A stretch of 62,048 nt of DNA, the filler included, from Vannella sp. (lineage: Eukaryota), in assembly GCA_023345925.1 (NCBI GenBank). It is 5 parts of 5 records of this genome, joined end to end, with 100 filler letters (N's around TTAATTAATTAA, not from the genome) between each part and the next. Parts side by side here need not be neighbours in the genome. Positions count along the whole stretch, not along the records: positions 12,327 to 30,899 come from JAJQQN010000107.1; 4 more parts are not named here. One strand, given 5' to 3'. Positions 222-51,580 of the stretch are shown here, one piece after another. The translations under genes and the position numbers were made by a program. Position 1 is the stretch's first letter, and every line of letters starts with the position of its first letter. The notes under the pieces are model-generated. The model was not told the origin of the DNA. It searched no databases and saw only the letters and a list, made by a program, of their open reading frames with translations.

Positions 222-1391
222 ATGGACTTTGGAGCTGATGCGTTGGACGCACTTCTACGGGACGTTTCGGAGGTCTCGTGGGACGGGTTCTTGGATCTTC
301 CGTTGAGCTGTTCTTGGGGGGAAGGGTTTCACTCAAACCCTTTGTCGCCTTCTGTGGGTCACTTGGAGTTGGATTTAGGAGGCTCATCCTCTTTACAGCC
401 AGCAGCTCCTTCCTTCATGCTTCCCAACAAAGCGTTGGAGCTGAAGCTCTCATCTGAAGAGTACGACAGACACATTAGCGAGCAGTTGCGCCTTTGTGGG
501 CCTCTCAATCCTTCTCAAACCCTTCGTGTGAAGGAGCAGCGCAAACGGATTAGGAATAGGGAGGCTGCGAGCACCTCTCGGATGAAGAAAAAGTCCACAA
601 CAGGCTCACTTGAGCAGGACAACGCCAGGCTCAAGGACGAGAACTCCACCCTACACGCTCTCGTTGCACAACTTAGCAAGGACGTTGAGATGTGGAGAGA
701 ACGGTGTCAGCAGCAAGAGAAGAACTCTCCAGCCCAACAGAATCCATCCCCTTTGCTTCCGTTGCACCCTCGATATCCAACACCCTCTTCACAGTCCCTT
801 GTCCACCCACCCAAAAGAGAAGAGGAACCTCGCCCAAGTCCTCTACAGGAGCCACTGGAAGGTCCCGTGCGACTGTGGCGAATCAACAACCGCCCAATGT
901 CGCACACTGTCCCTGTTCTCTTCACTTCCTTTGTGATTCTCTTCACGGTAGCCTTCTTCCTGCCTTTCTTTGGAACTCCTGAGTCCCGCATAGCCCTTCT
1001 ACCCCCTTCCAACGGGGTCTCTTACAATCCCCACGCCGGGGGACCAAAGGCGGCGGCCCCTCGCTTCCATCCTCCACCTGTAAGAAGAGGGATTCTAACG
1101 ATTCAAGACCAAGCCAACGACAGCCTCGCTCTTGTGATAGAGGACGAGGAGGACACCCCGACTGTCGAACCCGTCTGGACGGAAGCGGCCTTCCACCTCG
1201 ACGACCTCACCAGCGTGCTCCTCATCCAATCTCTTGGCGACCTCCATCACACTCTCGACGCCTCTTCCTTTGGAGTCATCGATCTGATCCTCCCTTCCGA
1301 TGAGCCCGAAAGCTTCGTTTTGGTATCCTCTCAAATCCTCTCCGCCCGGCCCATTTCTTTTCCTTTTCCTGGAGGAATAGAAGTTTTGTAA
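222..1391 (+). CDS. Membrane-tethered bZIP transcription factor (ATF6/CREB3/bZIP28-like)
   Basis: Basic region KRIRNREAASTSRMKKK plus leucine zipper; hydrophobic segment VLFTSFVILFTVAFFLPFF; RRGIL (RxxL) after the TM. Confidence 0.85.
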   Translation: MDFGADALDALLRDVSEVSWDGFLDLPLSCSWGEGFHSNPLSPSVGHLELDLGGSSSLQPAAPSFMLPNKALELKLSSEEYDRHISEQLRLCGPLNPSQTLRVKEQRKRIRNREAASTSRMKKKSTTGSLEQDNARLKDENSTLHALVAQLSKDVEMWRERCQQQEKNSPAQQNPSPLLPLHPRYPTPSSQSLVHPPKREEEPRPSPLQEPLEGPVRLWRINNRPMSHTVPVLFTSFVILFTVAFFLPFFGTPESRIALLPPSNGVSYNPHAGGPKAAAPRFHPPPVRRGILTIQDQANDSLALVIEDEEDTPTVEPVWTEAAFHLDDLTSVLLIQSLGDLHHTLDASSFGVIDLILPSDEPESFVLVSSQILSARPISFPFPGGIEVL

Positions 1392-1422
1392 TTTTGGGCG
1401 AGTTGGCGGGTTTTCATTTTGG

Positions 1423-12226: not shown

Positions 12227-12326
12227 NNNNNNNNNNNNNNNNNNNNNNNNNNNNNNNNNNNNNNNNNNNNTTAATTAATTAANNNNNNNNNNNNNNNNNN
12301 NNNNNNNNNNNNNNNNNNNNNNNNNN
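12227..12326. other. Artificial contig spacer (N44-TTAATTAATTAA-N44)
   Basis: N runs around an all-frame stop linker. Confidence 0.98.
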
Positions 12327-24757: not shown

Positions 24758-27444
24758 TCAAGGATGGAGATCTTCCGCGCCTCCAATAAATAAGTGATTA
24801 TTCTCGCAATGCCTTTTGCACTGCCGCATTCTGTGCCCTTTTGGTGAGAAGGATAGAAAAAGAAAAGAAAAACGAACCTCAATGAAACGAGGGAGCATGT
24901 CTGCAGTGATGCTTAATCCACAACTAAGAAGAGACAGCGATAAACCTGCTTGGGAGAGCCGAAGCTCCACCTCTTCCTCCGACTCCACCTGTTTGAAGAC
25001 GGTATCCAAGGCACTGCCATAGAACTTGATTGGAACCAAACATTTGGGATTGCTGAACTTAACCTTTTGCAAAAAGAGAAGGTCCTTCAATTCCAGAACG
25101 CCATCTCGAATGATGAACCCAACCAACTGCCCAGTAAACTTTGGGAGATTGGGAAACTCGGAGCTCTCCTCTTCGATGGTATCGCAGAAGCTTAGCAGAC
25201 CACTGAGCAAATTTGCTGAAGAGAGAATATCGTCTTTCTGGATCTTCACCAGTAAACTGGCGGCAAGCTCAATCAATGTGAGTTTGCGTGTTCCTGCAGA
25301 GACAATAGAGTGGACCAATATTGGGTGATAGATCTCTGTAGGGGCGCTTAGTTCCTCGATATACTGTTTGGCGTCATTCAAGTCGCGGATCTCAAAGTAT
25401 TCTGCCAGTAAATTCTCCACCGAGCGATCCGCTTGCTTTCTATCGAAGGTTCCATCTTCATCCTTTGCCTTTGTCACCTGCGGAGTATTCGGCAAGGGAG
25501 ATGAAGTAGAAATTGATCTACCAGCAATATCAGACCAAGTGATTAATGAAACATAGGAACATACCCCACTGAGGTGCTCTTCCGCTCTGAGAAGCCCTTT
25601 GATCCTCCCACGGAAAATGAGGCGCTGTTTTTCTTCCACTTTGAAGCACGAGGTTCTGTTGAAGTAGCTTTTGGTTTCATAGATGAACCTTTGTTTGGCA
25701 AGATTCGCCAACTTGACTTGCGAAGGTCGAAGAGGTCCATAATCATGAATCTAATCCTTGTCGAACAAGTTTCCATCCTTGAGTTCAATGTTTGGAAGAT
25801 AAAGTCAAGAGTCTCCTTGGATTTACCCTCCAGAATGTGGCCCAGTGAATTCAACATGTTGCACAGAGCCTCCAACGAGTCTTCTTCGGAGATAAAGCTG
25901 TTAGAACGGCTTAACAAGCCTTTTGCGCAAAACAAAGGCACATTCGCATTCAAAAGGGACCTTTCGTAGAGCTGGCAGATGAACCTGATATCTTCCAAAA
26001 GAGTCAGTTTTGACCTTCTCATTCGAGAGGCACTTACTCCCGAGATATCTTAGCTTCACCAAATTGTTACGCTCCTCTTCCGTGTAGTTTGCGTGAGAGC
26101 CAACGTTTGCATCCGCAATGGTCTTGAAGACTTGTTGAGCACGAGAAGCCAAACGGTCCATAAAGTTGATACCAGTCAAAGCTGGATCGCGTTTAATGCG
26201 ACTGCATAGCTCCGCATAAATGTGAGAGAATTTGCTTTCTTCCAGCGCTTTGTCGTAGAGAATATCCAAAAAGCCAGATAAGACTTCCATCTCTCCATCT
26301 TCTGATTTTGAGTATTTGGACAACTCTCCTATCAACTGAACGGCAATCTTTTCCAGGTTGTTTTTTGCTAACTTGTTCAAGCTGAGCTGCAATGGTTTGA
26401 GAGCAAGCACGATTGGATCTTCTGCTCCACTTCCACCCAATGCGCTGGGTTTCCACCTCGTGTCACTCTTGGGCAATGGCTTGACCTGTAAGTTTGTGAT
26501 GAGATTCGGAAAGCTCTGTCAGAGCGAAAGTACCTCTGATAGGGTCACCTGAGTGCCACGGGTACGTTGTGCGCGTCCTCCACCTGCTCCTCCTCCTCCT
26601 GCTCCTCCTCCTGCCTTATTTGCACCCCCTCCTCTTTTTGCCCCACGTTTCTTCCCTCCTTCTGCGCGTGTCTAAAGAGGGAGAAGTAAGTTGTGAGGAA
26701 GGAGGGGAAATGGAGTTTTCGCACGGTTTTCTGGGCATTCTTCTTGAGAATGGGGATGGATGAGTGTCTGAGATCCTCAGGCTCTTCCTGACATTCAGCA
26801 CGGGACTGGTATCGAATCAATTCTTCGATTGTGTAGGAACGAGATTCTTCTTCGCCTTCCTCTTCACCTTCCTCTTCCTCCTCTTCCTCTTCCTCTTCGC
26901 CTTCCTCTTCACTCTCTTCCAACATCTCTCCTTTCTTCACATTAAAAGAGAAGGCCCCTACGCCAGTCCAGCCAAGTAGTTTGGGACGTTCTCTTGTGCT
27001 ACACGAAAGGAGCTCTCCAGAGCTACTCTCTACGTGAAGACCAGAGAGAGATACGTTCACGGACATCTCTGTATCTTCATGGGTACCAGAGAAGTTGAAG
27101 GAAAGATCACCAGCCTCTGAACATCGGGAGAACGATAGGGAGAGGGAGACTCCTTTCCTGCCCTTTGGTACCATCACATTGAGTGCACCATTCTTCTTGA
27201 AAGGAACCTTTGCACCGATAGCTGATAACAAACTGTTCTGGCAGTCGTCAGTGACCACCAATCGCTCAATCTCCTCTCGAGAGAACTCCAAATGCTGCAC
27301 AATCAGCGTCCAAGCCTGCTGCATCTCTGGCACAGTAGCAGCACGAATCAGCAAACTCCCTGTTATCCTTTGCGAATCAAACGCGCAGTCCACGGCCACC
27401 TCCGTCACAGCCAGGCCCGCACCAGCTCCAGCCAGAAGCCGCAT
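24758..27444 (-). CDS. eIF4G-like initiation factor (4E-binding motif, MIF4G, MA3); spliced; alternative ATG at 27507
   Basis: YTIEELI (YxxxxLphi) at 26815-26835; LPKSDTRWKP; LNKL...KALEESKFSHIYAELC; RIRFMIMDLFDLRKSSW; LLAEYFEIRDLNDA (MA3). Confidence 0.88.
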
Positions 27445-27518
27445 CCGGCCAGACCTCCAAAAAATGATGAACGAAAGAAGGAACTCAAAGTAGACTGAAT
27501 TTAACATTTTATGAGGAG

Positions 27519-28630: not shown

Positions 28631-28978
28631 ATGAAGTGTTTGTTTGTCCTTGTCCTTCTGAGCTTTTGCTTGGGCACGTTTGCACAACAGAACGCTACTT
28701 GTGTAGGAGTGCGCTGTGCTGGTACAGCAAACTGTCCCAACCGCCAGTGCGTTGCGTACGACACCGACGAGCCTTTGTCGTGCTGTCCCCAATGTTGCAA
28801 CACAGCTTGTGTGCAATGCTTCATCAGCCCTTGCCAATCCCGCATCTGTAAATCGGACCCCTCTCTTGTGTGTGAATCGAACTATTGCGGTGGCTGCAAC
28901 CGCCTCTGGTACTCTGCCAAACTGCAAGGCTACGTCACTTGTCCTTCAGAAGGGCTGCAACCTCCCACCCGCAAATAA
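28631..28978 (+). CDS. Small secreted Cys-rich protein
   Basis: Signal peptide MKCLFVLVLLSFCLG; dense Cys including C..CFISPC...C.SNYCGGC. Confidence 0.75.
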   Translation: MKCLFVLVLLSFCLGTFAQQNATCVGVRCAGTANCPNRQCVAYDTDEPLSCCPQCCNTACVQCFISPCQSRICKSDPSLVCESNYCGGCNRLWYSAKLQGYVTCPSEGLQPPTRK

Positions 28979-29168: not shown

Positions 29169-30899
29169 ATGAACAAAGTGAATGTGATTATCATCGGCAA
29201 GCCTGGCGCAGGCAAGTCTTCTGTATCTCAACGTCTGAGTGAGAGCCAGGGCCTGGCAAACGTGGACTTTGGCATGTATCTCCGCTCCGTTGCTGCGGAC
29301 TCGTCCTCGCTTCTTGGTCGCTACGTGGCCACCTTTTGGTCTCGTAACAATCTAAAGGAGATTGGGTTCGAGTACTTTGACAAGGGTAAGAGCAAACACC
29401 TGCCCTCCTGCCCAATCTCTGATCGGCCGTTGACGTGTATTGCATGCAGAGTTCCAGAAGTGTGTGGGGGACCAGCTGAACTTCATTCTAAGCTCTCCCA
29501 AGGTACTGAGTGATGCTCGTGAGATCGATGAGCAGCTCATGGCCCACAAATTACAAGTGGACGTTATTGTCGAACTCGACGTTCCTTCTGCCATCTGTGT
29601 GGAGCGTGTGGGACAGAAGAAGGCCATTGGGTTCTCTATCCACACATCAGGTGATGATCAAGAGGACAGTGAGGCCTCCTACCCTGTGGAACTGCGGATT
29701 GAGAACTTTGAGAACCACGTTGAGGACCTCCGAACGTACTACCAGGCCCAACCTCACCTCACATACTTGAAGATTGACGCCTCCAAGGGCTTGGACGATG
29801 TCGTTGCCGATATCGGAGAGCGTATCAAGCAGGCCAAGCGAACAGAAGCCACCTGGGCCCACTTGAAGGTAGAGAAGGTAGAGGAGCCTGTTGAAGAGGA
29901 GGAAGCTGCAAACGAGAACTTCATTCGAGTCAACGGCACACGCCGCGCAGAGCTTGTCCAACTGATGCTGGATCTCGCGAACAACCCCAAACCAAAGATT
30001 CCCCTCACCCATCCCGTCCCCCTCTTTGGTGGTAACCTGTCGGAGCTCAAGAACCGCGAGTATGCCATCATCCGTAAGCTGAATGGCTTCCGTAGACTTC
30101 TTATCATTGATGCGGGGATCATCTACGCCGTCTCTCCTCAGTACAATGTCTTCCAATGTGTCGGCCTTCCCATGGCTGAGTCTCCTTCCCGTGACTGGAA
30201 CCGGAGTCTATTTGATGCCGAGATTGTCACTTCAAATGGAGAAGCAGGTTCCAAACAGTCTGTGTTCGTGCTGGACTGCCTGTGCGCCAGTGGGGACAAT
30301 GTCCGCAGCGAGAAGTTGTCTGTTCGCCTGGGACATGCCAAAACCTTCACAGATGACCTAAAGGAGTCTCCCAAAGAAGTTCAGCTCTTCTGCCAGACCT
30401 ACTACTCAATGAACCAGCTGCCTCAGGTCACCAAGCTTGGGCGCAATGGCGACCCTACCAGCTCTGTCCCTGCGGCACGGTTTACAGCTGACGGTCTTAT
30501 CTTTGTTCCAACAACACTACGCTACAACATCGGTTGCTCTCGCTTCCTGCTGGCATGGAAGCCCGTGTTCCTCAACACTATTGACTTGGCAATCTTCAAA
30601 GAGGCCAACGAAGACGGAATTCCGTGCCTTGCGCTCAAGTCGTATAACCATAAGGATGGTTCCTATCAGACCTGTGGAATGATAGAGCCTATTCCCGAGG
30701 GATTGGAGAAGCTGGAAGACACCACTGTGGTAGAATGCAACTGGCAAGGCAAATGGGTCATTCAAAAGGTCCGAAAGGAACGGGCCCATCCGAATGCGGA
30801 TTGGGTCATCAAAGAGGCAGTCGAACAAGCTAAGCAGCCTGTGAGTCCCCAAATGCTATTGGAAAAGGTACAATCCATCCTTCTTGCTGCCCGAAAGCC
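29169..30899 (+). CDS. Adenylate-kinase-like P-loop domain fused to mRNA guanylyltransferase (capping enzyme); intron 29386-29449; 3' end cut by gap
   Basis: IIIGKPGAGKS...VDFGMYLR...VIVELDVP...ERV...KIDASKGLDDV; GTase motifs KLNG, FDAEIV, VLDCL, DGLIFVP, AWKP, VVEC, RKERAHPN. Confidence 0.85.
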
Positions 30900-30999
30900 N
30901 NNNNNNNNNNNNNNNNNNNNNNNNNNNNNNNNNNNNNNNNNNNTTAATTAATTAANNNNNNNNNNNNNNNNNNNNNNNNNNNNNNNNNNNNNNNNNNNN
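30900..30999. other. Artificial contig spacer
   Basis: N44-TTAATTAATTAA-N44. Confidence 0.98.
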
Positions 31000-32908
31000 A
31001 CTTTCATCACTTTCGGCCACAAACCAATAGCTACGATTGGGAGTGACTAATTCAATGGCGTGTGGCCGAATTGCCGATGTCTTGGCATGAAGAGAGATAA
31101 GAGAAATGGAACCGGCCGGTTCGTCATCGAGTCTGTCCCTATAGTATTCAATCTGGTCGCTCTTCATGAGGACCCAGCGGTCCTTCCAGTCCTTAATCAT
31201 GTTATTTCCCATCTTCGAGAGCCACCCTTGCTTGGTCTCCTGTACAAGTGTGAACAACAGTCTTTCTTCTCTTCCAAGAGGACTTACAAATTCGCGCTTT
31301 GGGGCGCTCAACGGTTTAGATGAAGATGTGTCAACGGCAAGCCCTCTCGGTGATTCTTGTGGGAGGGCAGGTAGAGTAGATGGAGGACCAGGGAGGATTT
31401 GAATAGGCCGGGAAGGTGAAGCTCCCGCAGGAAGGGGGGGAGGACCCCTTGTAGACGGTGGTGGAGGAGGACCTCTGGTGGCGGGAGCAGGTGGTCCGGG
31501 AGAGGGAGGGGTGGGTTGTGCCGATGGGGGTAGGTTGGGCCGAGGGCCTCTAGCAAAGGGAGCAGGCGGCTCAGGAAAAGAAGGAGGTTGTTCAAATGTT
31601 GGGGCAGAGGGCTCCCTAATGGGTGCTTCCATTTGCTCCAGACAGTTTTGGCTAGCTTGGCGGATTGTTCGGATCCAAAAGTGCATTTCATCGGGACTCT
31701 CAGCAGCTACCCAGTAGCTTCGACTGGGAGTGGCTATCTCAATGCAATATCGTTTGTTCTTCCCTTCAGCCACTTTCGCGTTGCACGCTTCAAGGGGAAT
31801 ACATCCTAGTAACGTATCGATGGGGTCTCCGCCCTTCTTCTTATAGTAGGAGAGTACTGTTCCCTCAAGGATGAACCAGCGTCGCTTCCAGTCCTTCACG
31901 AGGTTGTTCCCCTCCTTGAGGAGATTCCCTTCGTGGTAGATTTGGTGTTGGACGGGGGAGGCAGGTTCACTCTCCATCCTTTGGGAAATGGCTTCTGATG
32001 CCATCTGTAGAGCAGCCATCCAGTTGCTCACCTCTGGATCCGTGTCTGCGCAGAAGAGGTAGGTCCTGGCGGGGGTGATCAGACCAAAGACGTGGTCCTT
32101 CTCCTCATTGGTCATTAACTTGACGTTAGAGTATAGTAGCTGGATGACTCCAATCGGTTGAGCGTCGCCTGGTGACTTGTAGTAGGACAGAAGGTTCTCT
32201 GAGAGGATAAAGTATCGCCGCTTCCAGTTCTTGTAGTTCCCTCCCTGCTTGTGGAGGAATCCCTTCTTCAAGGACGTGATATCTCCGCCCGCATTGATTT
32301 CTTGTCGTACTGTCAGAGGGGTGAGAGGAGGTAGACCCTCGAAGGAAGAGTCCTACCCTTTGAATGAACGGTTCCTTCGAGAGACTTGAACTCGGACTTG
32401 GAGAATGCTTTGTAAACATACTTTTCTACGATCCACTTCTCTCGGTCGCCACTGCCCCCCGTTAGAAAGACCAGCGCTTCAGTTGGCGCGGGGGTTCATA
32501 CTACGGGGACCGTGCATCTGGCTTGAATCGTCCACGAGTGTCTTCTTCCAATTGAGCGTTAGCTTTCTCATTGCCAAGCTGCATGAGCATCTTCATGGAG
32601 GGTAAGGAACGAAGGCTCAACGCAACCGGAGGAGGCTTTCTTCCTTACGGCAATCTCTGATGTGGTGAAGATTCCATCAATCGATTTGATAAGGGAGAGT
32701 TGTCCTCCCTTAAGTCCTTTATGAACGCCAGAGCAGTCTGTGCAGACTAAGACACCAAAGGTGGTGGACACCCATTTCGGGTCTGGGCCCTTTCGTCAGT
32801 GGCCTGTTACTATCTCCCCAACCATGCCTTACTCTTTGCTCCACAGTCAGCGCAAATGGGATTGCACCGTATCAACTTGGGCATCAACCCCTTGTCGCGG
32901 TTGCTCAT
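31000..32908 (-). CDS. ArfGAP plus at least three PH domains (ADAP/centaurin-alpha-like); spliced, 3' end cut
   Basis: NPICADCGAK|NPKWVSTTFGVLVCTDCSGVH; three K.G.L.K.G...K.WK.R.F-type PH domains; Pro-rich linker. Confidence 0.88.
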
Positions 32909-41294: not shown

Positions 41295-41394
41295 NNNNNN
41301 NNNNNNNNNNNNNNNNNNNNNNNNNNNNNNNNNNNNNNTTAATTAATTAANNNNNNNNNNNNNNNNNNNNNNNNNNNNNNNNNNNNNNNNNNNN
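41295..41394. other. Artificial contig spacer
   Basis: N44-TTAATTAATTAA-N44. Confidence 0.98.
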
Positions 41395-42022: not shown

Positions 42023-45000
42023 TCAAAGGGAAGTTCCCGTTTTCATTCTTGCGTCGATGGCGGAGTTCAGACGACGGACTTGCCAGCGAGCGCGGAATTC
42101 GACGACAACCACGGAAAGCGCAACGATCAAGACCGCTCCTGCCACCATTCCCAAAGAAATCCAGGCAAGAGTGTTGTCATGACTCACAGAGTGGCAGGGA
42201 TCACTTCCGCTTCCTCCCGCAGCGCCAGACAGAAGAAGAGCAAAGTTGGTGAGATGGTCCGTTTGACCGCAAAGAAGAGAATCCTTTCCAGGGTTGGTCA
42301 GACACTCGTCAACGCACCTCCACTTGGCCTTGCGCTCGTCGAAATAGCTCAGACAGGGAGGGTTTGCTTTGTCGATCTTCGTGTTATTGGGCAGCTCAAG
42401 GCAGATGACCAAGGGAGTGTCCAGCTGGGTGATGGGCTCTCCCTCCGAGTCTGTCAAAGTGATATCCAGAATGGTTCCGCCCAGCTCCTGATTGGAAAAG
42501 GTCTCAGGCACGTTGGTGGAGAATGTGATGACCAAAGTGGTGTTCTCTTCAGTGCTCAATTGAGGGGGGACGAACAAGCTGCCAGCAGACTCCCCATTGG
42601 ATGTGTTGAGCTCCAACAGCACTGGCTTTGGCTTGTCATTATTGCCATCTCCGCCTCCGTTGTTGTTTTCTCCTCCCCCGTTATTGTTATTACCGCCTCC
42701 GTTGTTGTTATCTCCACCTCCGTTGTTGTTTTCTCCGCCTCCGTTGTTGTTGTCGCCTCCGCCGTTGTTATTGTTGTTAACATTATTGATGTTGCCCACA
42801 ACAACCTGGAAGAACTGGCAATCGGTACATTCTGTGGCCAGCTGGCCCAGAACAGACACCAAGGTGACGGTTGGACTGGGAACAATCAGCGGCGTTGGGC
42901 TGCTGCTTGTGACACTGGATTCCATTGGGATAGAATCAGTGCTTGTTGGAGATTCAGAGGCCAAATCCGTGGTCGAGGCACTTAATGACTCCTCTGCGCT
43001 TGGGCTGGAAGATGGCGAAGGTTCCTCACTGGGAGATGGCAAATTGGACTCTGATATGGAAGCAGCAGCACTGGCCGAGAGTGATGGCTGCGTTGAAGCA
43101 CTGCTTGAAAGAGAAACTCTAAGTGAGAGAGATGGCGTATCACTGGGAGAAGGAGTGTTGGAGTCTGAACTGCTGGAAGAAGGAGTATTGGAGTCCGAGC
43201 TGCTTGGGGAAGGAGTGTTGGAGTCCGAATTGGTGGCAGAAGGTGACACTCCGATAGTCAAGCTGGCAGTGACTGAAGGCGAGACAGACTCCGTGGCCGA
43301 CGAGGAAGGAGAGGGCGTTACGCTGGGAGAAGGGGTGCTTGAGTCCGAATTGGTGGAAGAAGGAGACGCTCCGATGGTCAAGCTGGGAGTGACTGAAAGC
43401 GACACAGACTCAGAAGCTGACGAGGAAGGGGTGTTAGAGACCGAGGTGGACTCTGATGGAGTTTGAGAAGGACTGACACTCGGACTTTGGCTCGAAGTGG
43501 GCGTGATAGAAGAGGTCAGTGTGATACTTGGAGAGGGACTGCTTGAGACAGATGGGAGGGACTGCAGAAGCACAGAGAAGTCGCCCTCGCCCACATCGTA
43601 CCCGAAGACGGCCAGAGTCAGAACAGTGTCGCTCTGGAAGTTGCTGGAATACGTCAGACTCGATCCTCTTTGCGGGAGGACATCGTCTTGGGCGACCAGG
43701 CAGCTCAAGTTGCCACAGCTTCCTTCGAATAGCCAAAGGATAGTGTCAAAGGAAGGCGGTGAGGAGGGCAAATCGGTGGTGACCACCAGCGGTCCGTCTC
43801 TGCCTCCTGGGATGGTGATGTTGTAGAACACCACTGGCGAGTTGTGGTTGAGCTGATCGCACTGCGGAAGGGACCTGGAGTTGGTGGTGGAGCTGGTGGT
43901 CCGGCCAGGAGTGACTTGGCCAACAGTCAAAGGTTGAGCAGAGCTGCATTGCGCATTGGCAGCTGGTGGGGCGCTCTCTTTCGCTCGCAAGTGGACTCTT
44001 CCTGACTTTGCATTTGCGCTTCGCACAGCCACCATGAACTCGGTGCCAAATGGCTGCCTGGTGGGTGTGGTCAAGAAGCTGCATCCCTCTGTCTCTTGGA
44101 CCAAATGGCATTCCCAGTTGCCGCCTGTCTTCTTCCAGACAGCCATGAACGTGTCCAAGTCGGTGTCTTGCTCACAAGTGCTGAAGAGAGGCTGGGAGTC
44201 GGTGATGTTGGTGACGAAGTATCCGTACTCCGCGGGCAGGTCCAGCCCCTGCGATCCGCATGGAGGCAGGCCGAAGGTGGAGCTGGTGTTGGTGGATGCC
44301 AGTGGGTTGATGAACAGGGGAAGGACTTTGCCGTTCACCATTCTTTGGGAGAATGGGTTCCTTTGAGCAGGGTCGAACTCTTCCACAGAAAGGGAGAACC
44401 ACTCTGCGAAGGTATCACTGTTGTCGTAAACAAAAGCAAATGCGCTGTAGTAATTGCTCGCTGGAACGGTTAAGAGTGAGTTGACTGCTTGAACAGCAAC
44501 GTAAAGGGTTGTGATGGCCGGGTCCAGCTCAGAGGGGAAGAGCTGCACCTCGCCTCGTCCTAAACACGCGGCATTGTCCGATGCCAAACATGTGATTTGA
44601 TTGTTCTTGACCCCATACACGGCCAACACAGTCTGTCCAGTGGTTTTGGTGTTGCTGCAAGTGCTGAAGAGGAGAGTGCTGTTGAGGTTCTCTCGTGTGA
44701 ATGTGAAGAGCTGAACAGGCTGCAACTCAAACTGCAGACGGCAAATCGGAAGACCAGAGTTCATCAGAAGCTTCTTTCCCATCGCAGAGCCGACGAAAGT
44801 GTCTCCGTTGGCAATGGGAATGGAAGTGGTCAAAGTAGGCAGCTTTGGTGCGATATTACCTTCATAGTAATAGTCGCTAACCAGCTCTTGGACCAAGATA
44901 TAATAAGGAGATGTTGGTGGTGGTGATGAGCCGACGACCACCAAAAGCTCCATTCCCTTCAACAGCTTCTGGGTTGGATTGCCCCTGAAATCTCTTTCGC

Positions 45001-48000
45001 GCAGAATAGTCATGGCCACAGCGAAAACGCGCGAAAACGAGAATCTGGTGTTATCACTCCGAATGGCTTTGAGTTGGCCGTTGCTGTCCAAACTGTAAAG
45101 ATTCATTACCATCCTTGTTGCGCCTTCCAAAGTAATGCGAAGTTCCGGATAAGACTCTTCCAGCACATATCGGAAGAAGGTTGGGTCAGGGTTAAAAGTA
45201 ACACTCGAAAAGCCCAGATCCGCAGCAGTGAAGAAGGATTGGCTGTAATCGTAAAAGCGTCCGATTTGTCTGTTTTTGAGGAGCGGTGCAGTGTCCGACC
45301 GGACTGAAAGCTCAGTGAATGGCCCTTCGTGAATTTGAATCTCGAAAGTACCCTCGCCTTGAACGGCAATGAAGATCTCTTGCCCTGCAATGAGTCCTTC
45401 GATTCTCGCGATCACGTACGACCAGGATTGGCACACCAAAGCTCCGCAAGTTCCGTTGAAGACTGAGACAGGAAGAAGATTGCTATAATCGTTCACCGCC
45501 GAAATGGCCAAAGGAAGAGAGCTGTTTGCCTTGTATCGGAACATCACTGCGGCTCCGTTCGGGACAAGACCATTAATTGGACAAACGCTGATGTTGCTCA
45601 TCTCCAGACTGCGAGTGAATCCAGACACAGATGCCAAGTGCTCTTGGTACGGAATGCCCAATGACAAGGACTTTGCGAGAGTGCACAAGTCTGGCACTTC
45701 TTGCTCCAAATACTCGTCAATCTCGATCTCAAACGTGGCCATTCCTTGAGTTTTGGTGCCCATGTCGTAGACGCCAATGAGAAGCTCAGTGCCTGCAGAA
45801 AGCGACTTGTTAAAGTATGGGGCAGTGTTGATCACAGGAGCCTGAATGCAAGTGGCTTTGCACCCATTTCTGAAATGGAGGCTGACAGGGAAGCTTCTCA
45901 CATTATCCGCGTTCGAAGAACTGATGACTGAAATGTACAAGGTGCTGTTGGTTATCGTTGTGTTATACGAGAACAGTAGCGCTCTGAAAGAAGCCGTACA
46001 ATTGATCAGCATGTCGATTCCCAGACGCTGGGACAAGCGGAAGTCACCGAGAGCAGGTTGATTTGCCTGAAGAACAACAGCATTCTCGCATCGATCATTT
46101 GTGTCCACAACTCTGCTTACTAATAAGCTGAAAGCGCCTCTTTCTTCAATGGTCAGGCCAGAGACGGCCACAAAAAGTTCCGTCTCCACTTCTGTTGGTA
46201 AACTCACAAACCCTCGCAAGCCAAACTTACAAGACCCTAAAAAGGGGTCCAACTGGAGCGAAAGACACTTTCGATTAAGACAGGACCCAGTGAAGGCAGA
46301 CACTTGCGTTGCAAACTCAGTCACGGGAGAGCAGGTGCTGATCTCTGTTCGGCCTTCTCCAAGATAGCGGAAGAACATCACAGAACCGAATCCGTCCGCC
46401 ACACAAGGCTGGTCCTTGATAACTCCAAAGAACTGCCGACTGCTGTTGCCACCGATGGGAAGCGCGTGGTGAACTAACTCCGCTCGAGAGCAAATGTCAT
46501 TGTCTTCCGGAATTGGGACTTCTTCGATGAAGAGCGATCCTCCACTGACGTAGATATCCCGGTTGGCAATCAAGCGATCATGCACGATGATGATAAGCAG
46601 TCGGTCAAACCGAGTGAGTCCTTCCAACACGGTGTGGCCGCCGGCCACATTCCCGGCGCATTCAAATCCGTTCTCTCTTTCAAAGAATAGAGCAGCAACG
46701 GCCTGATTATCAGTGAGCGTGATCTTGACTTGTTGATAATCAAGTTGGGGCGAGAAACCAAACATTTGCTGAATGTGAGGGAAGCCCAAAACGCAGTCCC
46801 CTGGGAGACCAACATCTGCCAGAGTCTGGGTAGGATACCTCTGCAAAAGGTCCAATTGCTGTCCTGAGAGCACAGGAGTTGAGACTTCGAAGAGGGTCTT
46901 CTTATCCACTCTGACAGAAAAGGATCCAATGCTTTCAGGTTCGTCGTCTGAAGAGACCACAAGCACGAAATCTTTTGTTGACGCCGTTATAGTGGAGCAA
47001 CCAGAAACGGGAGAAGAGGGATTTGTGAGGCAAGTCTGGCAATTTGAAGACGTCAACCAGATGGTTCTCTTGACCAAGCCACACACCTCCACTTGTACAT
47101 TAGAAATCAGTGAGCCACTGTAATTGAATGTCTGCGTGTATCTCTGGCTATTGAAGCAAGTAAACGCCCGAGTCCAAGCTTCACCTGTGTCTCCGAAAGT
47201 GACTTTTCGGTTGATCAGGGGCAAGGCATTGGAGCAATCTGTGTTCTTTCCACGAGGTTTTGTTGTAGTATTGAGTGCAAATGTTCCTTTAGCGTTCTCA
47301 AACCCATACACAGCCAACGTCAGGACAGTGCCTGGGAGATACTTGCTTAAACGGAGTTCCAAAGATGTGGCAGTACCACAGTTAGGCGAGTCATCTTTCT
47401 CCCTAAGGCATGTAAGGCCATCGCATCCTCCCTTAAACAGAGCAAGATAAGTATCAAAGCTGGCTGCCCCACAGGTGCTGAAAGATACTGATGCTGTGTC
47501 GTTGGGGACTGTAAACTTGAAGAACACAACCGGGGATTCGAAAGGAAATCCACAGATAGGCAGTCTAGAGGCCAGAACACTAGAGGAGCGGGTATCACCA
47601 TTAATCACTGAACCTGGAAAGACCTCATTTGCAAGAGAACATGATTCGTTGAGACCAATCGGTGCAGGCTTCACTAGGATTTGGAAATCAACATACGACA
47701 GCAACACAGTGTTTGGCATAGCCACGGCTATCGTAAACTGGGCAGTCACCGGGGAGGTTGAGATCAAGAGCGGTTGTGAGCAATCTGTGAACCCAGATTG
47801 CATGCAGACAGAAGAGTTGTACACAAGTACAGACACATTTGCACTGTTGTGAAGGCCGCATGTGTCAACGAGATAAGACCCCACTTGAGGAGGAAGAGTT
47901 ATTTGATAGAATTCAGCTCGCCAGGTGGAATTGCTTTGCTCACATCCATTACCCAACTCATTCGACCATGTTCTGGAGATTGTCCCATCTGCAACCGTTC

Positions 48001-50899
48001 CCAAAAGCAGGGGCTTTGGACTCAATAAGGAGGATCCGAAGGGGGAACTCTCCTTGATGGTGAGAATGAATTGTGTGGAAGTTTCAGTCGTTTGCGCTCC
48101 AATAAACAGTGTTGAACCTATCGGATGGGTGCTGTTCACGATATAGACCAATCGCCCTTGAAAACCACACCCATCAAGATTAGATCCTAGTCGAACGAGT
48201 GCACTGCAGGGTCCAGAGAACAGAGCGACAGAAGTTCTTCTTGTAGAGCGATCGCACGTACTAATGTCCAGCAAGTAGTTCTGACCAGTCACTACATAGG
48301 AGAAGAACTGGATTGGTGAATTCTGGAGCATAGTGGCAGCATCATAGGGAATAGGTAGGTTAACCAAAAGATTGGTACCAACGGACAATACTCTACGAGG
48401 CTGGCCTGCGACGATAGCTGTTGAGTTTTGGCACGGGAACAGGTCCTTTTCTACTCCTTCGACCTGATAGCTGCTCGCATACTCTGACACTTGCAGCAGG
48501 AACGGTCCATTTTGTGAGACTGGACTGACCACAAGATAAAGGGTTGTTCCTTTGGGGAATTCAATGCGCGAGCTTTCAATGTGGATTTCTTTCTGTGACT
48601 GGCAATTGGTGGAAAAGGTTGTTTGGAATCTGCTAGTCAGTTGCCCGCATGTTCCAGTGAAGATGAACACTTCCACAAGAGTTGGGGACCCACATGCCGT
48701 GACATGAAAGCCGGGCAATCCCTCGGCTTGATATTGGTACACAGCAACTCTTCCTGGGAGAGAGAATTCTGCCCCAGAATTGAGCGGGGATGCCAAAGTA
48801 TCACCCGTCACTGGGGCGCCATTGAAGATAGGAAAGGCACTACTGCAGTTGTACCTCGTCTCTTGAACCGGAGAGTTTTGAACTATTAGGTCAGCAACAC
48901 CTTTTGTCAAGACAGCAATATGAATGGGGGTATTGGGGACAAGTCCCTCCAATAGGGCCATGCATGAGATGATCTTGGAGTAACAAGTCAGCATACTGCA
49001 GTTTCCCTCATACACTGCTATCCGTGCAGTCACTGAGCGAAATGCGGTAGAATCACAAGCACTAACAATCACTCGATCAGACTGAGGAACGAACTTGAAA
49101 AGAGTGGCAACAGTGCTGGTCTGGCCAGTAGCAGAGGTGCTGATATTGCACACAGGAAGGTTGAAAGATTGAAGAGTTCTAGTGCCAACAGGGCGTAAGA
49201 TTCGCGTATTGGGAGCTATAACAGGTACGTTGTCGCAAGGTGAGGCACCCAAAGGGCGCTCTTCCAATTGGACTTCAATAAGTGTGCTACCGAATGTACC
49301 TATAACAAAAACCAGATATTCACTTCCAGCGGAAGATGATGTCACTTCAATCGAGGAGCCAGTCCAGCAACCTACTAGTTCTGATCCTCGAGGTTGTGAA
49401 GTGCATCCTTTCCTGATTCCTAGTACTGGCTGGCCTGCAACGCTACTTCGACAAAGCGAGCCCACAATTGAGCTTGAGGAGAGAGTCGTTACAAACCGAT
49501 ACCAAAGCACTTTTTGCACAGAATCGGTCGGGAACAGCCGCATGTCCCCACGCACAGGAATTCCACTCAGGATAGGGAGCGCCTGAGAGCATTGACTATT
49601 TACTGGTGTCTGAGGGATTGGGGATACAAAGAGAGTACCATACCCTCTAAAGTTGGTGGGACTGAACGTTGCGATGATCAGTTCCGTCCCAGGAGCCAGG
49701 GAGGTGACGTCCACGTATTGGCCAGAAGAAGGGCATTTCTTCGGACTCGCAAGAGCAAAGCATTCCAACGCCTTGCAACTTCCGTTGAACACGACCAAAG
49801 AGGAGCCAAAACTACTTCCTGAGTCGAGGATGAGCCTGTCGCAAGCAGAGAACCGAGTTGGGCCGTTGACGGTGTATCGAAAGTAATAGGCTCCACCGCC
49901 TCCGAAACTAGCGCATGGTAGAGCTTTGGAGAAGTTACCTTGGAATGGTGGTGACGGTGCAAAGAGATAAACAGCTCCTAGAGTCATGGTAACGGCGCTT
50001 TCACAGTCCAAATTGGTCATGGGGACGACTTCCAGGAAGGAAACTGTACCGCTGTAAACCGCAGGACCAAGAGGCCTTTTGATGAGAAGCACCACCAAGA
50101 GTTCCTCCCCTTGCGGAAAGGTATACTGAGGTAGTCTGACGATCGATTGAGAGCTCTCCATCCTGAAGAACAGTTTGGTACAAATGAATTGATTACATCC
50201 ATTGGTCTGGTAGAAGGCAATTGCTGCAGGATACTCGCTTGAGGAGAAAGGTTGAATGTAGATCTCTTTGTGGTTCTCTCTGACGAAGTAACGTCCAACA
50301 GCAATAACGTGGTCAAACTCAGGGTCACAGCTTGGCAATGCATAAGCATTAACCGGGAGCACAGTACCATAGAACTGGCTGGCGGAAGCACCCTTCATGC
50401 TGGGAGGATAAAAGGAGGACTCACAAATCGAAGACTCATCCGCTCTGATGGTGAGGGTCCGGTCCCCAACTCCTGAGGACGTCACTATGAACACGAAGAC
50501 ATCGTTTGCAGACTTGAGACTGATCCTTGCCATGGATGCGCTAGGATAACCAAAGGAGACGCTAGAAAGGCCAAGACATCCGCGCTGGTTGCAACTGCTT
50601 CCAACTGCAAAAACTGACACAGTGATAGGTCCAGAAGCATTGATGGACACACGTAGAGGTAGACCTGGATGGGGGCTAATGGTACCATCATAGAGGAAGA
50701 ATGCAGCAGGAAGGCTCGGAGGCCCCATGTTGAACATGCAAGAGGACGTGAAGAAGAGCAAAGAAGCAGGGAGTGGGCTCGATTGACCAATTGAGCCATT
50801 TCGTTCGTTGCCCAATCCGAAGGGAATAAACTGCGGGTCTTGACAGCTCTGCGAGTGTGCTCCTAGGAAAAGGAGCGACAGAACAACGAGGACGCGCAT
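42023..50899 (-). CDS. Giant single-pass surface protein: tandem Cys-containing domains, S/T/P stalk, N/G repeat, GAIN/GPS, one TM
   Basis: Signal MRVLVVLSLLFLGAHS; repeats N..C..A..I..G / STC...FDT.LA.F.G.C..L.C; GPS CLSYFD...W.C...CGQTDHLTNFALLL; TM; ~22-aa tail; uninterrupted ORF. Confidence 0.88.
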   Translation of the reverse strand: MRVLVVLSLLFLGAHSQSCQDPQFIPFGLGNERNGSIGQSSPLPASLLFFTSSCMFNMGPPSLPAAFFLYDGTISPHPGLPLRVSINASGPITVSVFAVGSSCNQRGCLGLSSVSFGYPSASMARISLKSANDVFVFIVTSSGVGDRTLTIRADESSICESSFYPPSMKGASASQFYGTVLPVNAYALPSCDPEFDHVIAVGRYFVRENHKEIYIQPFSSSEYPAAIAFYQTNGCNQFICTKLFFRMESSQSIVRLPQYTFPQGEELLVVLLIKRPLGPAVYSGTVSFLEVVPMTNLDCESAVTMTLGAVYLFAPSPPFQGNFSKALPCASFGGGGAYYFRYTVNGPTRFSACDRLILDSGSSFGSSLVVFNGSCKALECFALASPKKCPSSGQYVDVTSLAPGTELIIATFSPTNFRGYGTLFVSPIPQTPVNSQCSQALPILSGIPVRGDMRLFPTDSVQKVLWYRFVTTLSSSSIVGSLCRSSVAGQPVLGIRKGCTSQPRGSELVGCWTGSSIEVTSSSAGSEYLVFVIGTFGSTLIEVQLEERPLGASPCDNVPVIAPNTRILRPVGTRTLQSFNLPVCNISTSATGQTSTVATLFKFVPQSDRVIVSACDSTAFRSVTARIAVYEGNCSMLTCYSKIISCMALLEGLVPNTPIHIAVLTKGVADLIVQNSPVQETRYNCSSAFPIFNGAPVTGDTLASPLNSGAEFSLPGRVAVYQYQAEGLPGFHVTACGSPTLVEVFIFTGTCGQLTSRFQTTFSTNCQSQKEIHIESSRIEFPKGTTLYLVVSPVSQNGPFLLQVSEYASSYQVEGVEKDLFPCQNSTAIVAGQPRRVLSVGTNLLVNLPIPYDAATMLQNSPIQFFSYVVTGQNYLLDISTCDRSTRRTSVALFSGPCSALVRLGSNLDGCGFQGRLVYIVNSTHPIGSTLFIGAQTTETSTQFILTIKESSPFGSSLLSPKPLLLGTVADGTISRTWSNELGNGCEQSNSTWRAEFYQITLPPQVGSYLVDTCGLHNSANVSVLVYNSSVCMQSGFTDCSQPLLISTSPVTAQFTIAVAMPNTVLLSYVDFQILVKPAPIGLNESCSLANEVFPGSVINGDTRSSSVLASRLPICGFPFESPVVFFKFTVPNDTASVSFSTCGAASFDTYLALFKGGCDGLTCLREKDDSPNCGTATSLELRLSKYLPGTVLTLAVYGFENAKGTFALNTTTKPRGKNTDCSNALPLINRKVTFGDTGEAWTRAFTCFNSQRYTQTFNYSGSLISNVQVEVCGLVKRTIWLTSSNCQTCLTNPSSPVSGCSTITASTKDFVLVVSSDDEPESIGSFSVRVDKKTLFEVSTPVLSGQQLDLLQRYPTQTLADVGLPGDCVLGFPHIQQMFGFSPQLDYQQVKITLTDNQAVAALFFERENGFECAGNVAGGHTVLEGLTRFDRLLIIIVHDRLIANRDIYVSGGSLFIEEVPIPEDNDICSRAELVHHALPIGGNSSRQFFGVIKDQPCVADGFGSVMFFRYLGEGRTEISTCSPVTEFATQVSAFTGSCLNRKCLSLQLDPFLGSCKFGLRGFVSLPTEVETELFVAVSGLTIEERGAFSLLVSRVVDTNDRCENAVVLQANQPALGDFRLSQRLGIDMLINCTASFRALLFSYNTTITNSTLYISVISSSNADNVRSFPVSLHFRNGCKATCIQAPVINTAPYFNKSLSAGTELLIGVYDMGTKTQGMATFEIEIDEYLEQEVPDLCTLAKSLSLGIPYQEHLASVSGFTRSLEMSNISVCPINGLVPNGAAVMFRYKANSSLPLAISAVNDYSNLLPVSVFNGTCGALVCQSWSYVIARIEGLIAGQEIFIAVQGEGTFEIQIHEGPFTELSVRSDTAPLLKNRQIGRFYDYSQSFFTAADLGFSSVTFNPDPTFFRYVLEESYPELRITLEGATRMVMNLYSLDSNGQLKAIRSDNTRFSFSRVFAVAMTILRERDFRGNPTQKLLKGMELLVVVGSSPPPTSPYYILVQELVSDYYYEGNIAPKLPTLTTSIPIANGDTFVGSAMGKKLLMNSGLPICRLQFELQPVQLFTFTRENLNSTLLFSTCSNTKTTGQTVLAVYGVKNNQITCLASDNAACLGRGEVQLFPSELDPAITTLYVAVQAVNSLLTVPASNYYSAFAFVYDNSDTFAEWFSLSVEEFDPAQRNPFSQRMVNGKVLPLFINPLASTNTSSTFGLPPCGSQGLDLPAEYGYFVTNITDSQPLFSTCEQDTDLDTFMAVWKKTGGNWECHLVQETEGCSFLTTPTRQPFGTEFMVAVRSANAKSGRVHLRAKESAPPAANAQCSSAQPLTVGQVTPGRTTSSTTNSRSLPQCDQLNHNSPVVFYNITIPGGRDGPLVVTTDLPSSPPSFDTILWLFEGSCGNLSCLVAQDDVLPQRGSSLTYSSNFQSDTVLTLAVFGYDVGEGDFSVLLQSLPSVSSSPSPSITLTSSITPTSSQSPSVSPSQTPSESTSVSNTPSSSASESVSLSVTPSLTIGASPSSTNSDSSTPSPSVTPSPSSSATESVSPSVTASLTIGVSPSATNSDSNTPSPSSSDSNTPSSSSSDSNTPSPSDTPSLSLRVSLSSSASTQPSLSASAAASISESNLPSPSEEPSPSSSPSAEESLSASTTDLASESPTSTDSIPMESSVTSSSPTPLIVPSPTVTLVSVLGQLATECTDCQFFQVVVGNINNVNNNNNGGGDNNNGGGENNNGGGDNNNGGGNNNNGGGENNNGGGDGNNDKPKPVLLELNTSNGESAGSLFVPPQLSTEENTTLVITFSTNVPETFSNQELGGTILDITLTDSEGEPITQLDTPLVICLELPNNTKIDKANPPCLSYFDERKAKWRCVDECLTNPGKDSLLCGQTDHLTNFALLLSGAAGGSGSDPCHSVSHDNTLAWISLGMVAGAVLIVALSVVVVEFRARWQVRRLNSAIDARMKTGTSL
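42645..42790 (-). repeat. Coding 21-nt tandem repeat encoding NNNGGG(D/E/N)
   Basis: Repeated CCGCCTCCGTTGTTGTT units on the + strand. Confidence 0.9.
43140..43450 (-). repeat. Coding Ser/Thr/Pro repeats (SDSNTPSPSS; SVTPSLTIGASPSSTNSDS duplicated)
   Basis: Recurring GAAGGAGTGTTGGAGTC(C/T)GA units and a larger duplicated block. Confidence 0.8.
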
Positions 50900-51357
50900 G
50901 AACCGAGCGGCCGCTTGGAGAAAGAATGAATACAGAGGTGATCGTAATGAAGCAATTCCCACAGATCGAAATCGATTCAATGAACAATGAAAGCGAAATC
51001 GAAGAGCCAATCATTGATCACCTTTTTGTCCAATCAGAGCCAGGGATGTTTTGTTTTCCCTGTATTGGTCTCAACCCTTGTAATAATTATAAAAAGATTC
51101 CATTTATTAATGTCGCAATTGAATGGCAAGGAAAGAGGAGCCCCCAACAACGAGTCCGTTTGTGGTGAAAGAGGGATGGTTGACGAAGCAAGGGGGACAG
51201 GACAAGACGTGGAGGAAACGCTGGTTCGTGTTGAGGTAACAATCACATCGCTCACCACAAGCACCCAAGAAAGAGCCGTTGGCACGCATTTCTCTCTCCT
51301 TGTCAGCTCTGCTTCTCCTGCACCCAACTGGGGCAACAAGGAAAGAAGAGGAGTCAT

Positions 51358-51480: not shown

Positions 51481-51580
51481 NNNNNNNNNNNNNNNNNNNN
51501 NNNNNNNNNNNNNNNNNNNNNNNNTTAATTAATTAANNNNNNNNNNNNNNNNNNNNNNNNNNNNNNNNNNNNNNNNNNNN
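51481..51580. other. Artificial contig spacer
   Basis: N44-TTAATTAATTAA-N44. Confidence 0.98.

What the first reader, a model, noticed from the sequence alone, without database searches (positions are those of the whole stretch)
29169..30899. Adenylate-kinase-like domain fused to an mRNA guanylyltransferase: candidate RNA re-capping enzyme outside kinetoplastids
Seen: one spliced ORF (64-nt intron 29386-29449) joins an NMP-kinase-fold domain (GKPGAGKS at 29196-29219, ERV, KIDASKGLDDV) to a full set of capping-enzyme GTase motifs and an OB fold. The adenylate-kinase AMP-binding DGFPR position reads LSSPK, which suggests a non-AMP acceptor. Known: normal capping pairs GTase with an RNA triphosphatase; Trypanosoma brucei cytoplasmic TbCe1 instead pairs a 5'-monophosphate RNA kinase with GTase to re-cap decapped RNA. 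Inference: this intron-rich genome is clearly not kinetoplastid-like, so it may have a pRNA->ppRNA->GpppRNA re-capping pathway.
Basis: partly seen in the sequence, partly recalled or inferred. Interest (0 to 1): 0.88.

Follow-up and report, generated by a model that had tools for sequence, protein, structure and literature searches.

The report
Kinase-fused mRNA capping enzyme, eroded branch
One spliced gene from an intron-bearing eukaryote that is likely not a trypanosome joins an adenylate-kinase-like domain to an mRNA cap-adding domain, the layout that re-caps decapped mRNA in trypanosomes, but its branch lacks otherwise near-invariant active-site residues, so it likely grips RNA 5' ends and caps them weakly or not at all.

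Summary
The fusion is real. Exon 1 (29169-29385), a 64-nt GT-AG intron and exon 2 (29450-30899) give 555 residues that run into an assembly gap. Three relatives break at the same codon and also exist as continuous proteins. Pfam and an AlphaFold model of a 66%-identical relative (pTM 0.88) show an adenylate-kinase fold joined to a guanylyltransferase and OB fold. It belongs to a wider kinase-GTase family: 37 further fusions among the top 150 hits, named members are Amoebozoa, and both domain trees separate it from ordinary capping enzymes and adenylate kinases. The closest known systems are trypanosome TbCe1 (re-capping) and TbG5-IP; orthology could not be tested because no TbCe1 sequence was retrievable. 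LSSPK is branch-specific erosion, not an RNA-kinase mark, since 30 of 37 other fusions keep [DE]GxP[RK]. The GTase motifs are not intact: the motif Ia Arg and first motif V Lys are absent in 6 of 6 branch members. Best reading: an eroded re-capping-family protein (0.45); a fully active re-capper 0.33. The scan noted this family earlier on giant-virus DNA.

The parts
29169..29385 (+). Exon 1: N-terminal 72 residues of the adenylate-kinase-like domain (P-loop and NMP-binding segment)
   Evidence: 78% identical to the start of full-length P0008
29386..29449 (+). 64-nt GT-AG intron, phase 1; same position and phase inferred in three relatives
29450..30899 (+). Exon 2: rest of the kinase, acidic linker, GTase nucleotidyltransferase domain and OB fold; cut off by the assembly gap
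29196..29219 (+). P-loop GKPGAGKS (Lys16, Ser17); GK[ST] type rather than the GKG of adenylate kinases
29259..29273 (+). Strand-2 end with Asp33, a branch-specific acid where other fusions mostly have Ser (25 of 37); a possible substitute Mg ligand (inference)
29310..29339 (+). Family signature in the NMP-binding segment (LGx[YF]xx[NF][WY] type), replacing the adenylate-kinase AMP pocket sequence
   Evidence: 31 of 37 fusions, 0 of 26 plain adenylate kinases
29488..29502 (+). LSSPK: eroded DGFPR motif (Asp deleted, Gly to Ser, Arg to Lys); the Asp is also missing in the two close neighbours P0012 and P0014
29596..29709 (+). Short lid: the Arg123 and Arg167 equivalents (E. coli numbering, recalled) are kept, the Arg156 equivalent is lost
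30073..30093 (+). GTase motif I with the predicted nucleophile Lys282 and Arg287 (human Lys294, Arg299); Asn in place of the usual Asp
30127..30141 (+). Motif Ia site: Pro302 where human has Arg315
   Evidence: Arg in 0 of 6 branch members, 37 of 37 other fusions, 45 of 48 canonical
30211..30282 (+). Motifs III and IIIa (acids kept; the IIIa aromatic is Leu, as in 15 of 37 other fusions)
30388..30405 (+). Motif IIIc with Gln388 in place of the guanine-O6-reading Lys; a family-wide marker
   Evidence: Gln in 6 of 6 branch members, 32 of 37 other fusions; Lys in 48 of 48 canonical
30433..30456 (+). Branch-specific insert before motif IV with a 7-residue invariant run
30487..30591 (+). Motifs IV and V; Ala441 where human has Lys458; Lys443 (human Lys460) and the motif V Asp kept
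   Evidence: Lys458 equivalent in 0 of 6 branch members, 34 of 37 other fusions (2 gaps), 48 of 48 canonical
30592..30860 (+). OB fold with motif VI at 30766-30795 (Glu516 for the usual Asp); boundaries approximate
30900..30999 (.). Assembly gap (N runs around a 12-base spacer) hiding the stop codon and an estimated 4-21 residue tail

Best explanation
The gene encodes one protein that joins an adenylate-kinase-derived domain to an mRNA guanylyltransferase, and it likely descends from a TbCe1-type re-capping enzyme but likely now acts mainly as a reader of RNA 5' ends, capping them weakly or not at all. Ancestral route (shown for TbCe1 only, inferred for this family): the kinase takes the 5'-monophosphate nucleotide of a decapped RNA in its remodelled NMP pocket and adds a phosphate from ATP; the GTase forms a Lys-GMP adduct and transfers GMP to the ppRNA. 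In this branch the folds, the P-loop Lys-Ser and the GTase nucleophile Lys282 are kept (shown). Two basic residues of the GTase phosphate site, the kinase Asp-Gly and one lid Arg are gone (shown). Nucleotide or RNA-end binding would survive while turnover falls (inferred), as a cytoplasmic regulator or adaptor comparable in layout to TbG5-IP (inferred).
For: Single protein. Folds: model of P0001 with mean pLDDT 90.7 and pTM 0.88 over both domains; human GTase Z 30.5, rmsd 2.6, 306 aligned; adenylate kinase Z 21.2, rmsd 3.1, 192 aligned. Separate family: canonical GTases versus fusions split 100/99 (47 hand-picked rows of 114); fusion kinases versus plain adenylate kinases SH-aLRT 97. The Atlas's nearest cluster for two different members is the same mRNA_cap_enzyme cluster, AAA_17 on 51% of members, commonest Euglenozoa (0.95 and 0.93). 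Erosion: at 15 near-invariant GTase positions the six branch members carry 2-5 changes each (window 3), while 35 of 37 other fusions and 44 of 48 canonical enzymes carry none; sister P0013 carries none, and the three listed for sister P0012 are a misalignment, as its motif VI is intact. Only 8 of those 15 positions are invariant in the branch, against 141 of 315 columns overall (counted), so the catalytic set is barely more conserved than background. The lost motif V Lys contacts the GMP phosphate and ribose O3' in Pce1 (PMC4066402 section 6). A second trypanosome protein with NTP-hydrolase plus GTase domains, TbG5-IP, binds eIF4G5 and is uncharacterised.
Against: The nucleophile Lys and seven other catalytic positions are invariant in 6 of 6, and most changes within the branch are conservative (Asp/Glu, Lys/Arg). 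The clearly dead-looking family members P0014, P0086 and P0099 lose the nucleophile Lys and carry 6-7 changes. The kinase keeps the P-loop and gains Asp33, which could replace the lost Mg ligand (inference from shikimate-kinase-type kinases, recalled). That the two lost residues are essential in mammalian and yeast enzymes is recalled (Sawaya and Shuman 2003, seen only as a citation); my searches did not retrieve it. No activity, localisation or expression data exist for any non-trypanosome member.
Confidence: 0.45

Rival explanations
1. It is a fully working TbCe1-type re-capping enzyme (pRNA to ppRNA to GpppRNA), with other residues standing in for the lost ones.
For: Same domain order as TbCe1 (PMC11417388); nucleophile Lys, motif I Arg, motif III Asp, motif V Asp, motif VI Arg and Asn kept in 6 of 6; intact P-loop plus Asp33; 52-67% identity across the branch; confident two-domain model.
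Against: Motif Ia Arg and motif V first Lys absent in 6 of 6 against 37 of 37 and 34 of 37 other fusions; further changes at motifs I, III, IV, V and VI in single members; kinase Asp-Gly lost and the Arg156 equivalent absent in 6 of 6 against 27 of 37; TbCe1 orthology untested.
Confidence: 0.33
2. It is active but with changed chemistry: the GTase pocket uses another donor (for example ATP, giving an adenosine cap) or another acceptor than ppRNA.
For: The guanine-O6-reading Lys of motif IIIc, whose Ala mutant abolishes activity in the PBCV-1 enzyme (PMC3783409 passages), is Gln across the family. The two residues lost in this branch were lost together and are recalled to line one phosphate site.
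Against: TbCe1 makes GpppRNA, and if it is a family member the Gln is compatible with GTP; its residue at this position could not be seen. The fold search ranks GTP-using capping enzymes far above ATP-using ligases (E 1e-22 against about 1e-9).
Confidence: 0.11
3. It is the organism's ordinary nuclear capping guanylyltransferase, with an incidental kinase domain.
For: No genome was held, so a separate canonical GTase could not be shown.
Against: It falls outside the canonical GTases at 100/99, lacks residues that 45-48 of 48 canonical enzymes keep, and has no triphosphatase domain.
Confidence: 0.05
4. The kinase domain phosphorylates free nucleotides (an NMP kinase feeding GTP to the GTase) and has nothing to do with RNA ends.
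For: The nearest solved folds are adenylate and UMP-CMP kinases; Pfam ADK is hit.
Against: The NMP-binding segment is replaced in the family by a signature absent from 26 of 26 plain adenylate kinases, and this branch lacks the Asp-Gly and lid Arg that those kinases keep (24, 25 and 26 of 26).
Confidence: 0.04

Closest known systems
TbCe1, Trypanosoma brucei cytoplasmic re-capping enzyme (RNA 5'-monophosphate kinase plus guanylyltransferase)
   Same: A kinase and a guanylyltransferase in one protein with no triphosphatase (PMC11417388; PMC5027499). That its kinase is N-terminal and adenylate-kinase-like is recalled from Silva et al. 1998, seen only as a citation. The Atlas's nearest cluster is mostly euglenozoan with cap-enzyme and AAA_17 families.
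   Different: This gene is cis-spliced and lies in a genome with cis-introns; no cap-4 or spliced-leader context is known; two GTase phosphate-site residues and part of the kinase site are missing; no activity shown; sequence-level orthology untested.
TbG5-IP (Tb927.11.14590), eIF4G5-binding capping-enzyme homologue of trypanosomatids
   Same: NTP-hydrolase plus guanylyltransferase domains, described as similar in structure to TbCe1 (PMC5750579; PMC10810786; PMC8657474).
   Different: G5-IP is defined by binding eIF4G5 in the eIF4E6 complex; no partner is known here. Whether G5-IP is catalytically impaired is not stated in the passages I saw.
Canonical mRNA guanylyltransferases (human RNGTT, fission-yeast Pce1, Ceg1, PBCV-1 GTase)
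   Same: Same nucleotidyltransferase plus OB fold (Z 29-30.5) and motif order I-VI.
   Different: Kinase instead of triphosphatase partner; Gln for the motif IIIc Lys; Trp after motif VI (28 of 37 fusions, not among the five commonest residues of the canonical set); separate side of the tree.
Adenylate kinases (ADK family)
   Same: Same fold (Z about 21); P-loop Lys and the Arg36, Arg123 and Arg167 equivalents kept; several family members keep a full ADK lid (Pfam ADK_lid).
   Different: GK[ST] instead of GKG, replaced NMP-binding segment, eroded DGFPR, short lid without the Arg156 equivalent.

Membership tests
TbCe1-type re-capping enzyme | P-loop kinase and guanylyltransferase in one polypeptide, no triphosphatase | tested here: met
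TbCe1-type re-capping enzyme | Orthology with TbCe1 by sequence and tree | tested here: inconclusive
   No named kinetoplastid sequence came back (150 of 2651 hits listed; 20 distant hits looked up by name), 34 or 75; only the cluster-level Atlas match
TbCe1-type re-capping enzyme | ATP-dependent pRNA kinase activity and GpppRNA formation | not testable with these tools
   needs recombinant assay
TbCe1-type re-capping enzyme | Cytoplasmic localisation | not testable with these tools
   no data; the C-terminal tail is hidden by the gap
mRNA guanylyltransferase (covalent nucleotidyltransferase) | NTase plus OB fold, motif I lysine nucleophile | tested here: met
mRNA guanylyltransferase (covalent nucleotidyltransferase) | Complete set of near-invariant active-site residues (motif Ia Arg, both motif V Lys, motif IIIc Lys, motif VI Asp) | tested here: not met
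   Pro302, Ala441, Gln388, Glu516
Canonical nuclear capping GTase (RNGTT/Ceg1 type) | Groups with canonical GTases; triphosphatase fused or as partner | tested here: not met
   tree split 100/99 (no AU test run); no DSP domain
Adenylate kinase | NMP-kinase fold with P-loop | tested here: met
Adenylate kinase | GKGT loop, DGxPR motif, lid RxDD and AMP-binding segment | tested here: not met
TbG5-IP-like eIF4G adaptor | NTP-hydrolase-type domain plus GTase domain | tested here: met
TbG5-IP-like eIF4G adaptor | Direct binding to an eIF4G | not tested
   no complex prediction was run; only adjacency of an eIF4G gene was seen

The most novel reading that the evidence does not exclude
Amoebozoans and other microbial eukaryotes carry an ancient, undescribed family of adenylate-kinase-derived RNA 5'-kinase/nucleotidyltransferases that includes TbCe1 and reads its cap donor with a Gln instead of the universal Lys. 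This branch has rebuilt the phosphate site to install a non-standard 5' cap, or to act as a dedicated 5'-end reader docked on eIF4G.
Probability: 0.15. Interest if true: 0.9.

Novelty: new variant of a known kind. Interest (0 to 1): 0.6.

Why it matters
Bifunctional re-capping is described only for trypanosomes in the papers I saw, and the mammalian re-capping RNA kinase is still called unidentified (PMC11417388 discussion). An intron-bearing nuclear family in Amoebozoa and unnamed eukaryotes would move the pathway out of one odd lineage and show how an adenylate kinase can be turned into an RNA 5'-end kinase. It also gives testable proteins: intact members (P0013, P0016, P0018) against an eroded branch, plus sequence markers (NMP-segment signature, motif IIIc Gln) that can be checked against TbCe1 and G5-IP in minutes. 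If this copy is merely decayed, the family still matters but this window is not the best member to study.

Tried and rejected
Two separate genes or a chance open frame: rejected by the three exon-1/full-length pairs. LSSPK as a marker of RNA-kinase specificity: rejected. Canonical nuclear GTase: disfavoured. First AlphaFold job on a 10-row alignment failed (pLDDT 49); the 109-row job worked. Genomic neighbourhoods of relatives: two metagenome scans found nothing and a viral scan with the close alignment found nothing, so synteny with eIF4G is untested. A viral scan with a distant sub-family alignment gave 74 loci, all with a GTase ORF and 0 of 74 with a kinase hit; this neither confirms nor refutes the viral fusions reported by earlier notes. 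Retrieving TbCe1 or G5-IP failed in two profile searches, a PDB profile search and two supplement searches (one file was a scanned picture that could not be read). Literature: ten searches listed no paper describing a kinase-GTase fusion outside kinetoplastids; only the listed titles and abstract starts were seen for most hits, and the two primary TbCe1 papers (Ignatochkina 2015, not held; Silva 1998, not requested) may discuss homologues. No complex prediction was run, because gene adjacency alone did not justify it and the eIF4G domain is split by introns.

Full report
OBSERVATION. Joining 29169-29385 to 29450-30899 gives 555 codons without a stop; the intron is 64 nt, GTAAG...TGCAG. The frame ends in an N gap at 30900, so the stop codon is not seen; six relatives carry 4-21 more residues. 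Pfam finds ADK-type families on exon 1 (ADK E 0.0011, AAA_18 3.2e-06) and on the start of exon 2 (ADK 5.4e-06), then mRNA_cap_enzyme (8.4e-16) and mRNA_cap_C (1.8e-04). Solved capping enzymes match at E 3e-10 to 2e-05. An open frame alone does not prove the splice, since 27 GT-AG pairs keep it open. Relatives decide it. Five proteins at 52-67% identity were found. Three short entries (P0020, P0022, P0024) are identical to full-length P0008, P0005/P0011 and P0003 over 71 of 71, 86 of 86 and 75 of 75 residues, then leave the alignment at a Gly right after the junction, as the window's unspliced read-through does; other entries begin just after it. I infer that the short ones are gene calls on unspliced DNA and the long ones come from spliced transcripts. 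The intron is thus conserved in position and the two domains are one protein. No reads from this organism were seen.

STRUCTURE. AlphaFold on P0001 (66% identical over exon 2; not the window's own protein) with a 109-row alignment gave mean pLDDT 90.7 and pTM 0.88 for both domains together, which suggests a defined arrangement of the two. Foldseek ranks capping enzymes first (1.3e-22) and adenylate kinases at 7e-10. The second aligner gives human GTase Z 30.5 (rmsd 2.6, 306 aligned) and adenylate kinase Z 21.2 (rmsd 3.1, 192 aligned).

FAMILY. A profile search over 1.84 billion representatives returned 2651 hits at E 0.001, of which only the best 150 were listed. From the stored proteins I kept 113 with a GTase score of 25 bits or more, leaving out six near-duplicates and two fragments, and added window exon 2. 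I sorted them, partly by looking at the tree, into the window's branch (6), three close neighbours, 37 other kinase fusions, 20 set-aside rows without a detected kinase, and 48 canonical-type GTases (unnamed; judged by a DSP domain, by motifs or by tree position). Of 20 distant hits looked up by name, four carry species names, all amoebae: Cavostelium, Dracoamoeba (the header of that record says Stereomyxa), Soliformovum and Planopodium (Planopodium is Amoebozoa; the same for the others is recalled; the Planopodium entry shows only the GTase part). In a 47-row mixture-model tree the 20 canonical GTases lie on one side of a 100/99 branch and all 27 fusion-family rows on the other. The window's branch (100/97) joins P0012 and P0013 (100/100) and, less firmly, the Dracoamoeba group (94/93) (degenerate long rows such as P0014, P0086, P0099 left out; no AU test; root not inferred). 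A quick tree of 39 fusion kinases and 26 plain adenylate kinases also splits them (SH-aLRT 97; those kinases were simply the best scorers, not a broad sample). Family markers: a replaced NMP-binding segment (31 of 37 fusions, 0 of 26 adenylate kinases) and Gln in place of the guanine-O6-reading Lys of motif IIIc (6 of 6, 3 of 3, 32 of 37, and 17 of the 20 set-aside rows; Lys in 48 of 48 canonical). The Atlas gives the same top cluster for P0003 and P0018: 51 members, mRNA_cap_enzyme 96%, AAA_17 51%, commonest Euglenozoa (scores 0.95 and 0.93). That is a lead to TbCe1 or G5-IP, not an alignment. The window's own lineage was not determined; cis-introns in this and a neighbouring gene argue against a kinetoplastid (established knowledge, recalled).

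Using human numbering from the alignment, the motif Ia Arg315 position is Pro/Gln/Ala/Ser in 6 of 6 branch members but Arg in 37 of 37 other fusions and 45 of 48 canonical enzymes. The motif V Lys458 position is Ala/Ser/Thr in 6 of 6 but Lys in 34 of 37 (2 gaps) and 48 of 48. Over 15 near-invariant positions the branch members carry 2-5 changes each; 35 of 37 other fusions and 44 of 48 canonical enzymes carry none, and the sisters P0012 and P0013 are intact once one misalignment is corrected. Eight of the 15 are invariant in the branch, close to the background of 141 of 315 columns. In Pce1 the equivalent motif V Lys contacts the GMP phosphate and ribose O3' (PMC4066402 section 6). That both residues are essential in other GTases and share a phosphate site is recalled, not retrieved. 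The kinase is eroded too: the D84 column is a gap in 6 of 6 (Asp or Glu in 34 of 37 other fusions) and the lid Arg156 equivalent is absent in 6 of 6 (Arg in 27 of 37) (E. coli numbering recalled). So LSSPK is local erosion, not the family's acceptor signature. Against a dead enzyme: the nucleophile Lys282 and seven other positions are invariant, most changes are conservative, the P-loop is intact, an Asp appears at the end of strand 2 that could hold Mg (inference), and the family's obvious pseudo-enzymes (P0014, P0086, P0099) lose the Lys outright.

MECHANISM. Shown for TbCe1: RNA kinase plus GTase convert pRNA via ppRNA to GpppRNA in the cytoplasm (PMC11417388: abstract, introduction, part of the methods and the discussion read). 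Inferred for the family: the same route, because an NMP-kinase fold with a remodelled acceptor pocket fused to a GTase without a triphosphatase makes exactly the ppRNA the GTase needs. I put this at about 0.6-0.65 for intact members. For the window's copy I rank an eroded 5'-end-binding or weakly active form first (0.45), a fully active re-capper second (0.33), changed chemistry third (0.11), and the main nuclear GTase (0.05) or a free-nucleotide kinase (0.04) last. The gap between the first two is small and only an assay settles it. A precedent for the same layout in a regulatory complex is TbG5-IP, which binds eIF4G5 and is uncharacterised (passages of PMC5750579, PMC10810786, PMC8657474). 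An eIF4G-like gene with an eIF4E-binding motif lies about 1.7 kb upstream on the other strand, but adjacency in a eukaryote is weak and synteny could not be tested.

NOVELTY. Ten literature searches listed no description of this fusion outside kinetoplastids; a Toxoplasma paper states that no TbCe1 homologue was identified there (passage). The two primary TbCe1 papers were not read, and they or unreadable supplements may mention homologues. Other papers seen as passages only: PMC5027499, PMC8311971, PMC3783409, PMC8034621, PMC2904801, PMC12215270; PMC3547949 gave no hits. Earlier notes of this scan describe the same layout on giant-virus DNA, one naming amoebae; these are unchecked leads, one is marked as partly fallen, and my viral scan found no fusion in 74 loci. 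What this window adds is an intron-bearing nuclear copy with a conserved splice, family markers, and an eroded branch. Verdict: new variant of a known kind, interest 0.6.

Noticed in passing
window 24800-27510 (- strand): eIF4G-like gene (MIF4G and MA3 by Pfam, eIF4G hits in PDB) with a YxxxxL-phi eIF4E-binding motif at 26835-26815, starting about 1.7 kb from the fusion gene's ATG. Curious because TbG5-IP binds an eIF4G; synteny and binding untested.
   Followed up: partly
window 30388-30405 and family alignment: The whole kinase-fused family has Gln where canonical GTases have the guanine-reading Lys of motif IIIc, whose Ala mutant is inactive in the PBCV-1 enzyme; donor specificity of the family deserves a test.
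   Followed up: partly
proteins P0014, P0086, P0099: Family members that lack the catalytic lysine and carry 6-7 active-site changes: likely pseudo-enzymes, so the family has decayed more than once.
   Followed up: partly
proteins P0181 (Chlamydomonas CHLRE_12g524850), P0165, P0167: A second fusion type: N-terminal P-loop region, capping-enzyme-like domain, and a further C-terminal region that by eye resembles an RNA ligase (recalled resemblance; Pfam showed only mRNA_cap_enzyme and AAA_16 in the two scanned).
   Followed up: partly
window 28632-28978 (+): Small cysteine-rich protein with a signal-peptide-like start between eIF4G and the fusion gene; no Pfam hit.
   Followed up: partly
window 30955-32352 (-): Protein with three PH-domain matches and a proline-rich stretch, converging on the fusion gene and also cut by the gap.
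   Followed up: partly
window 12227-12326, 30900-30999, 41295-41394, 51481-51580: Four assembly gaps of the same form (44 N, 12-base spacer, 44 N); joins across them are scaffolding, not sequence.
   Followed up: no
window 42026-51010 (-): A 2995-codon uninterrupted frame with a signal-peptide-like start; not examined.
   Followed up: no
window 1381-5877 (+): Strawberry notch homologue in one 1499-codon frame (Pfam AAA_34, Helicase_C_4).
   Followed up: no
proteins P0025, P0080 and about 30 relatives: A large sub-family of short-lid kinase-GTase fusions called as unbroken ORFs on metagenome contigs (one of 56 kb); may be the viral group of the earlier notes, not confirmed here.
   Followed up: partly
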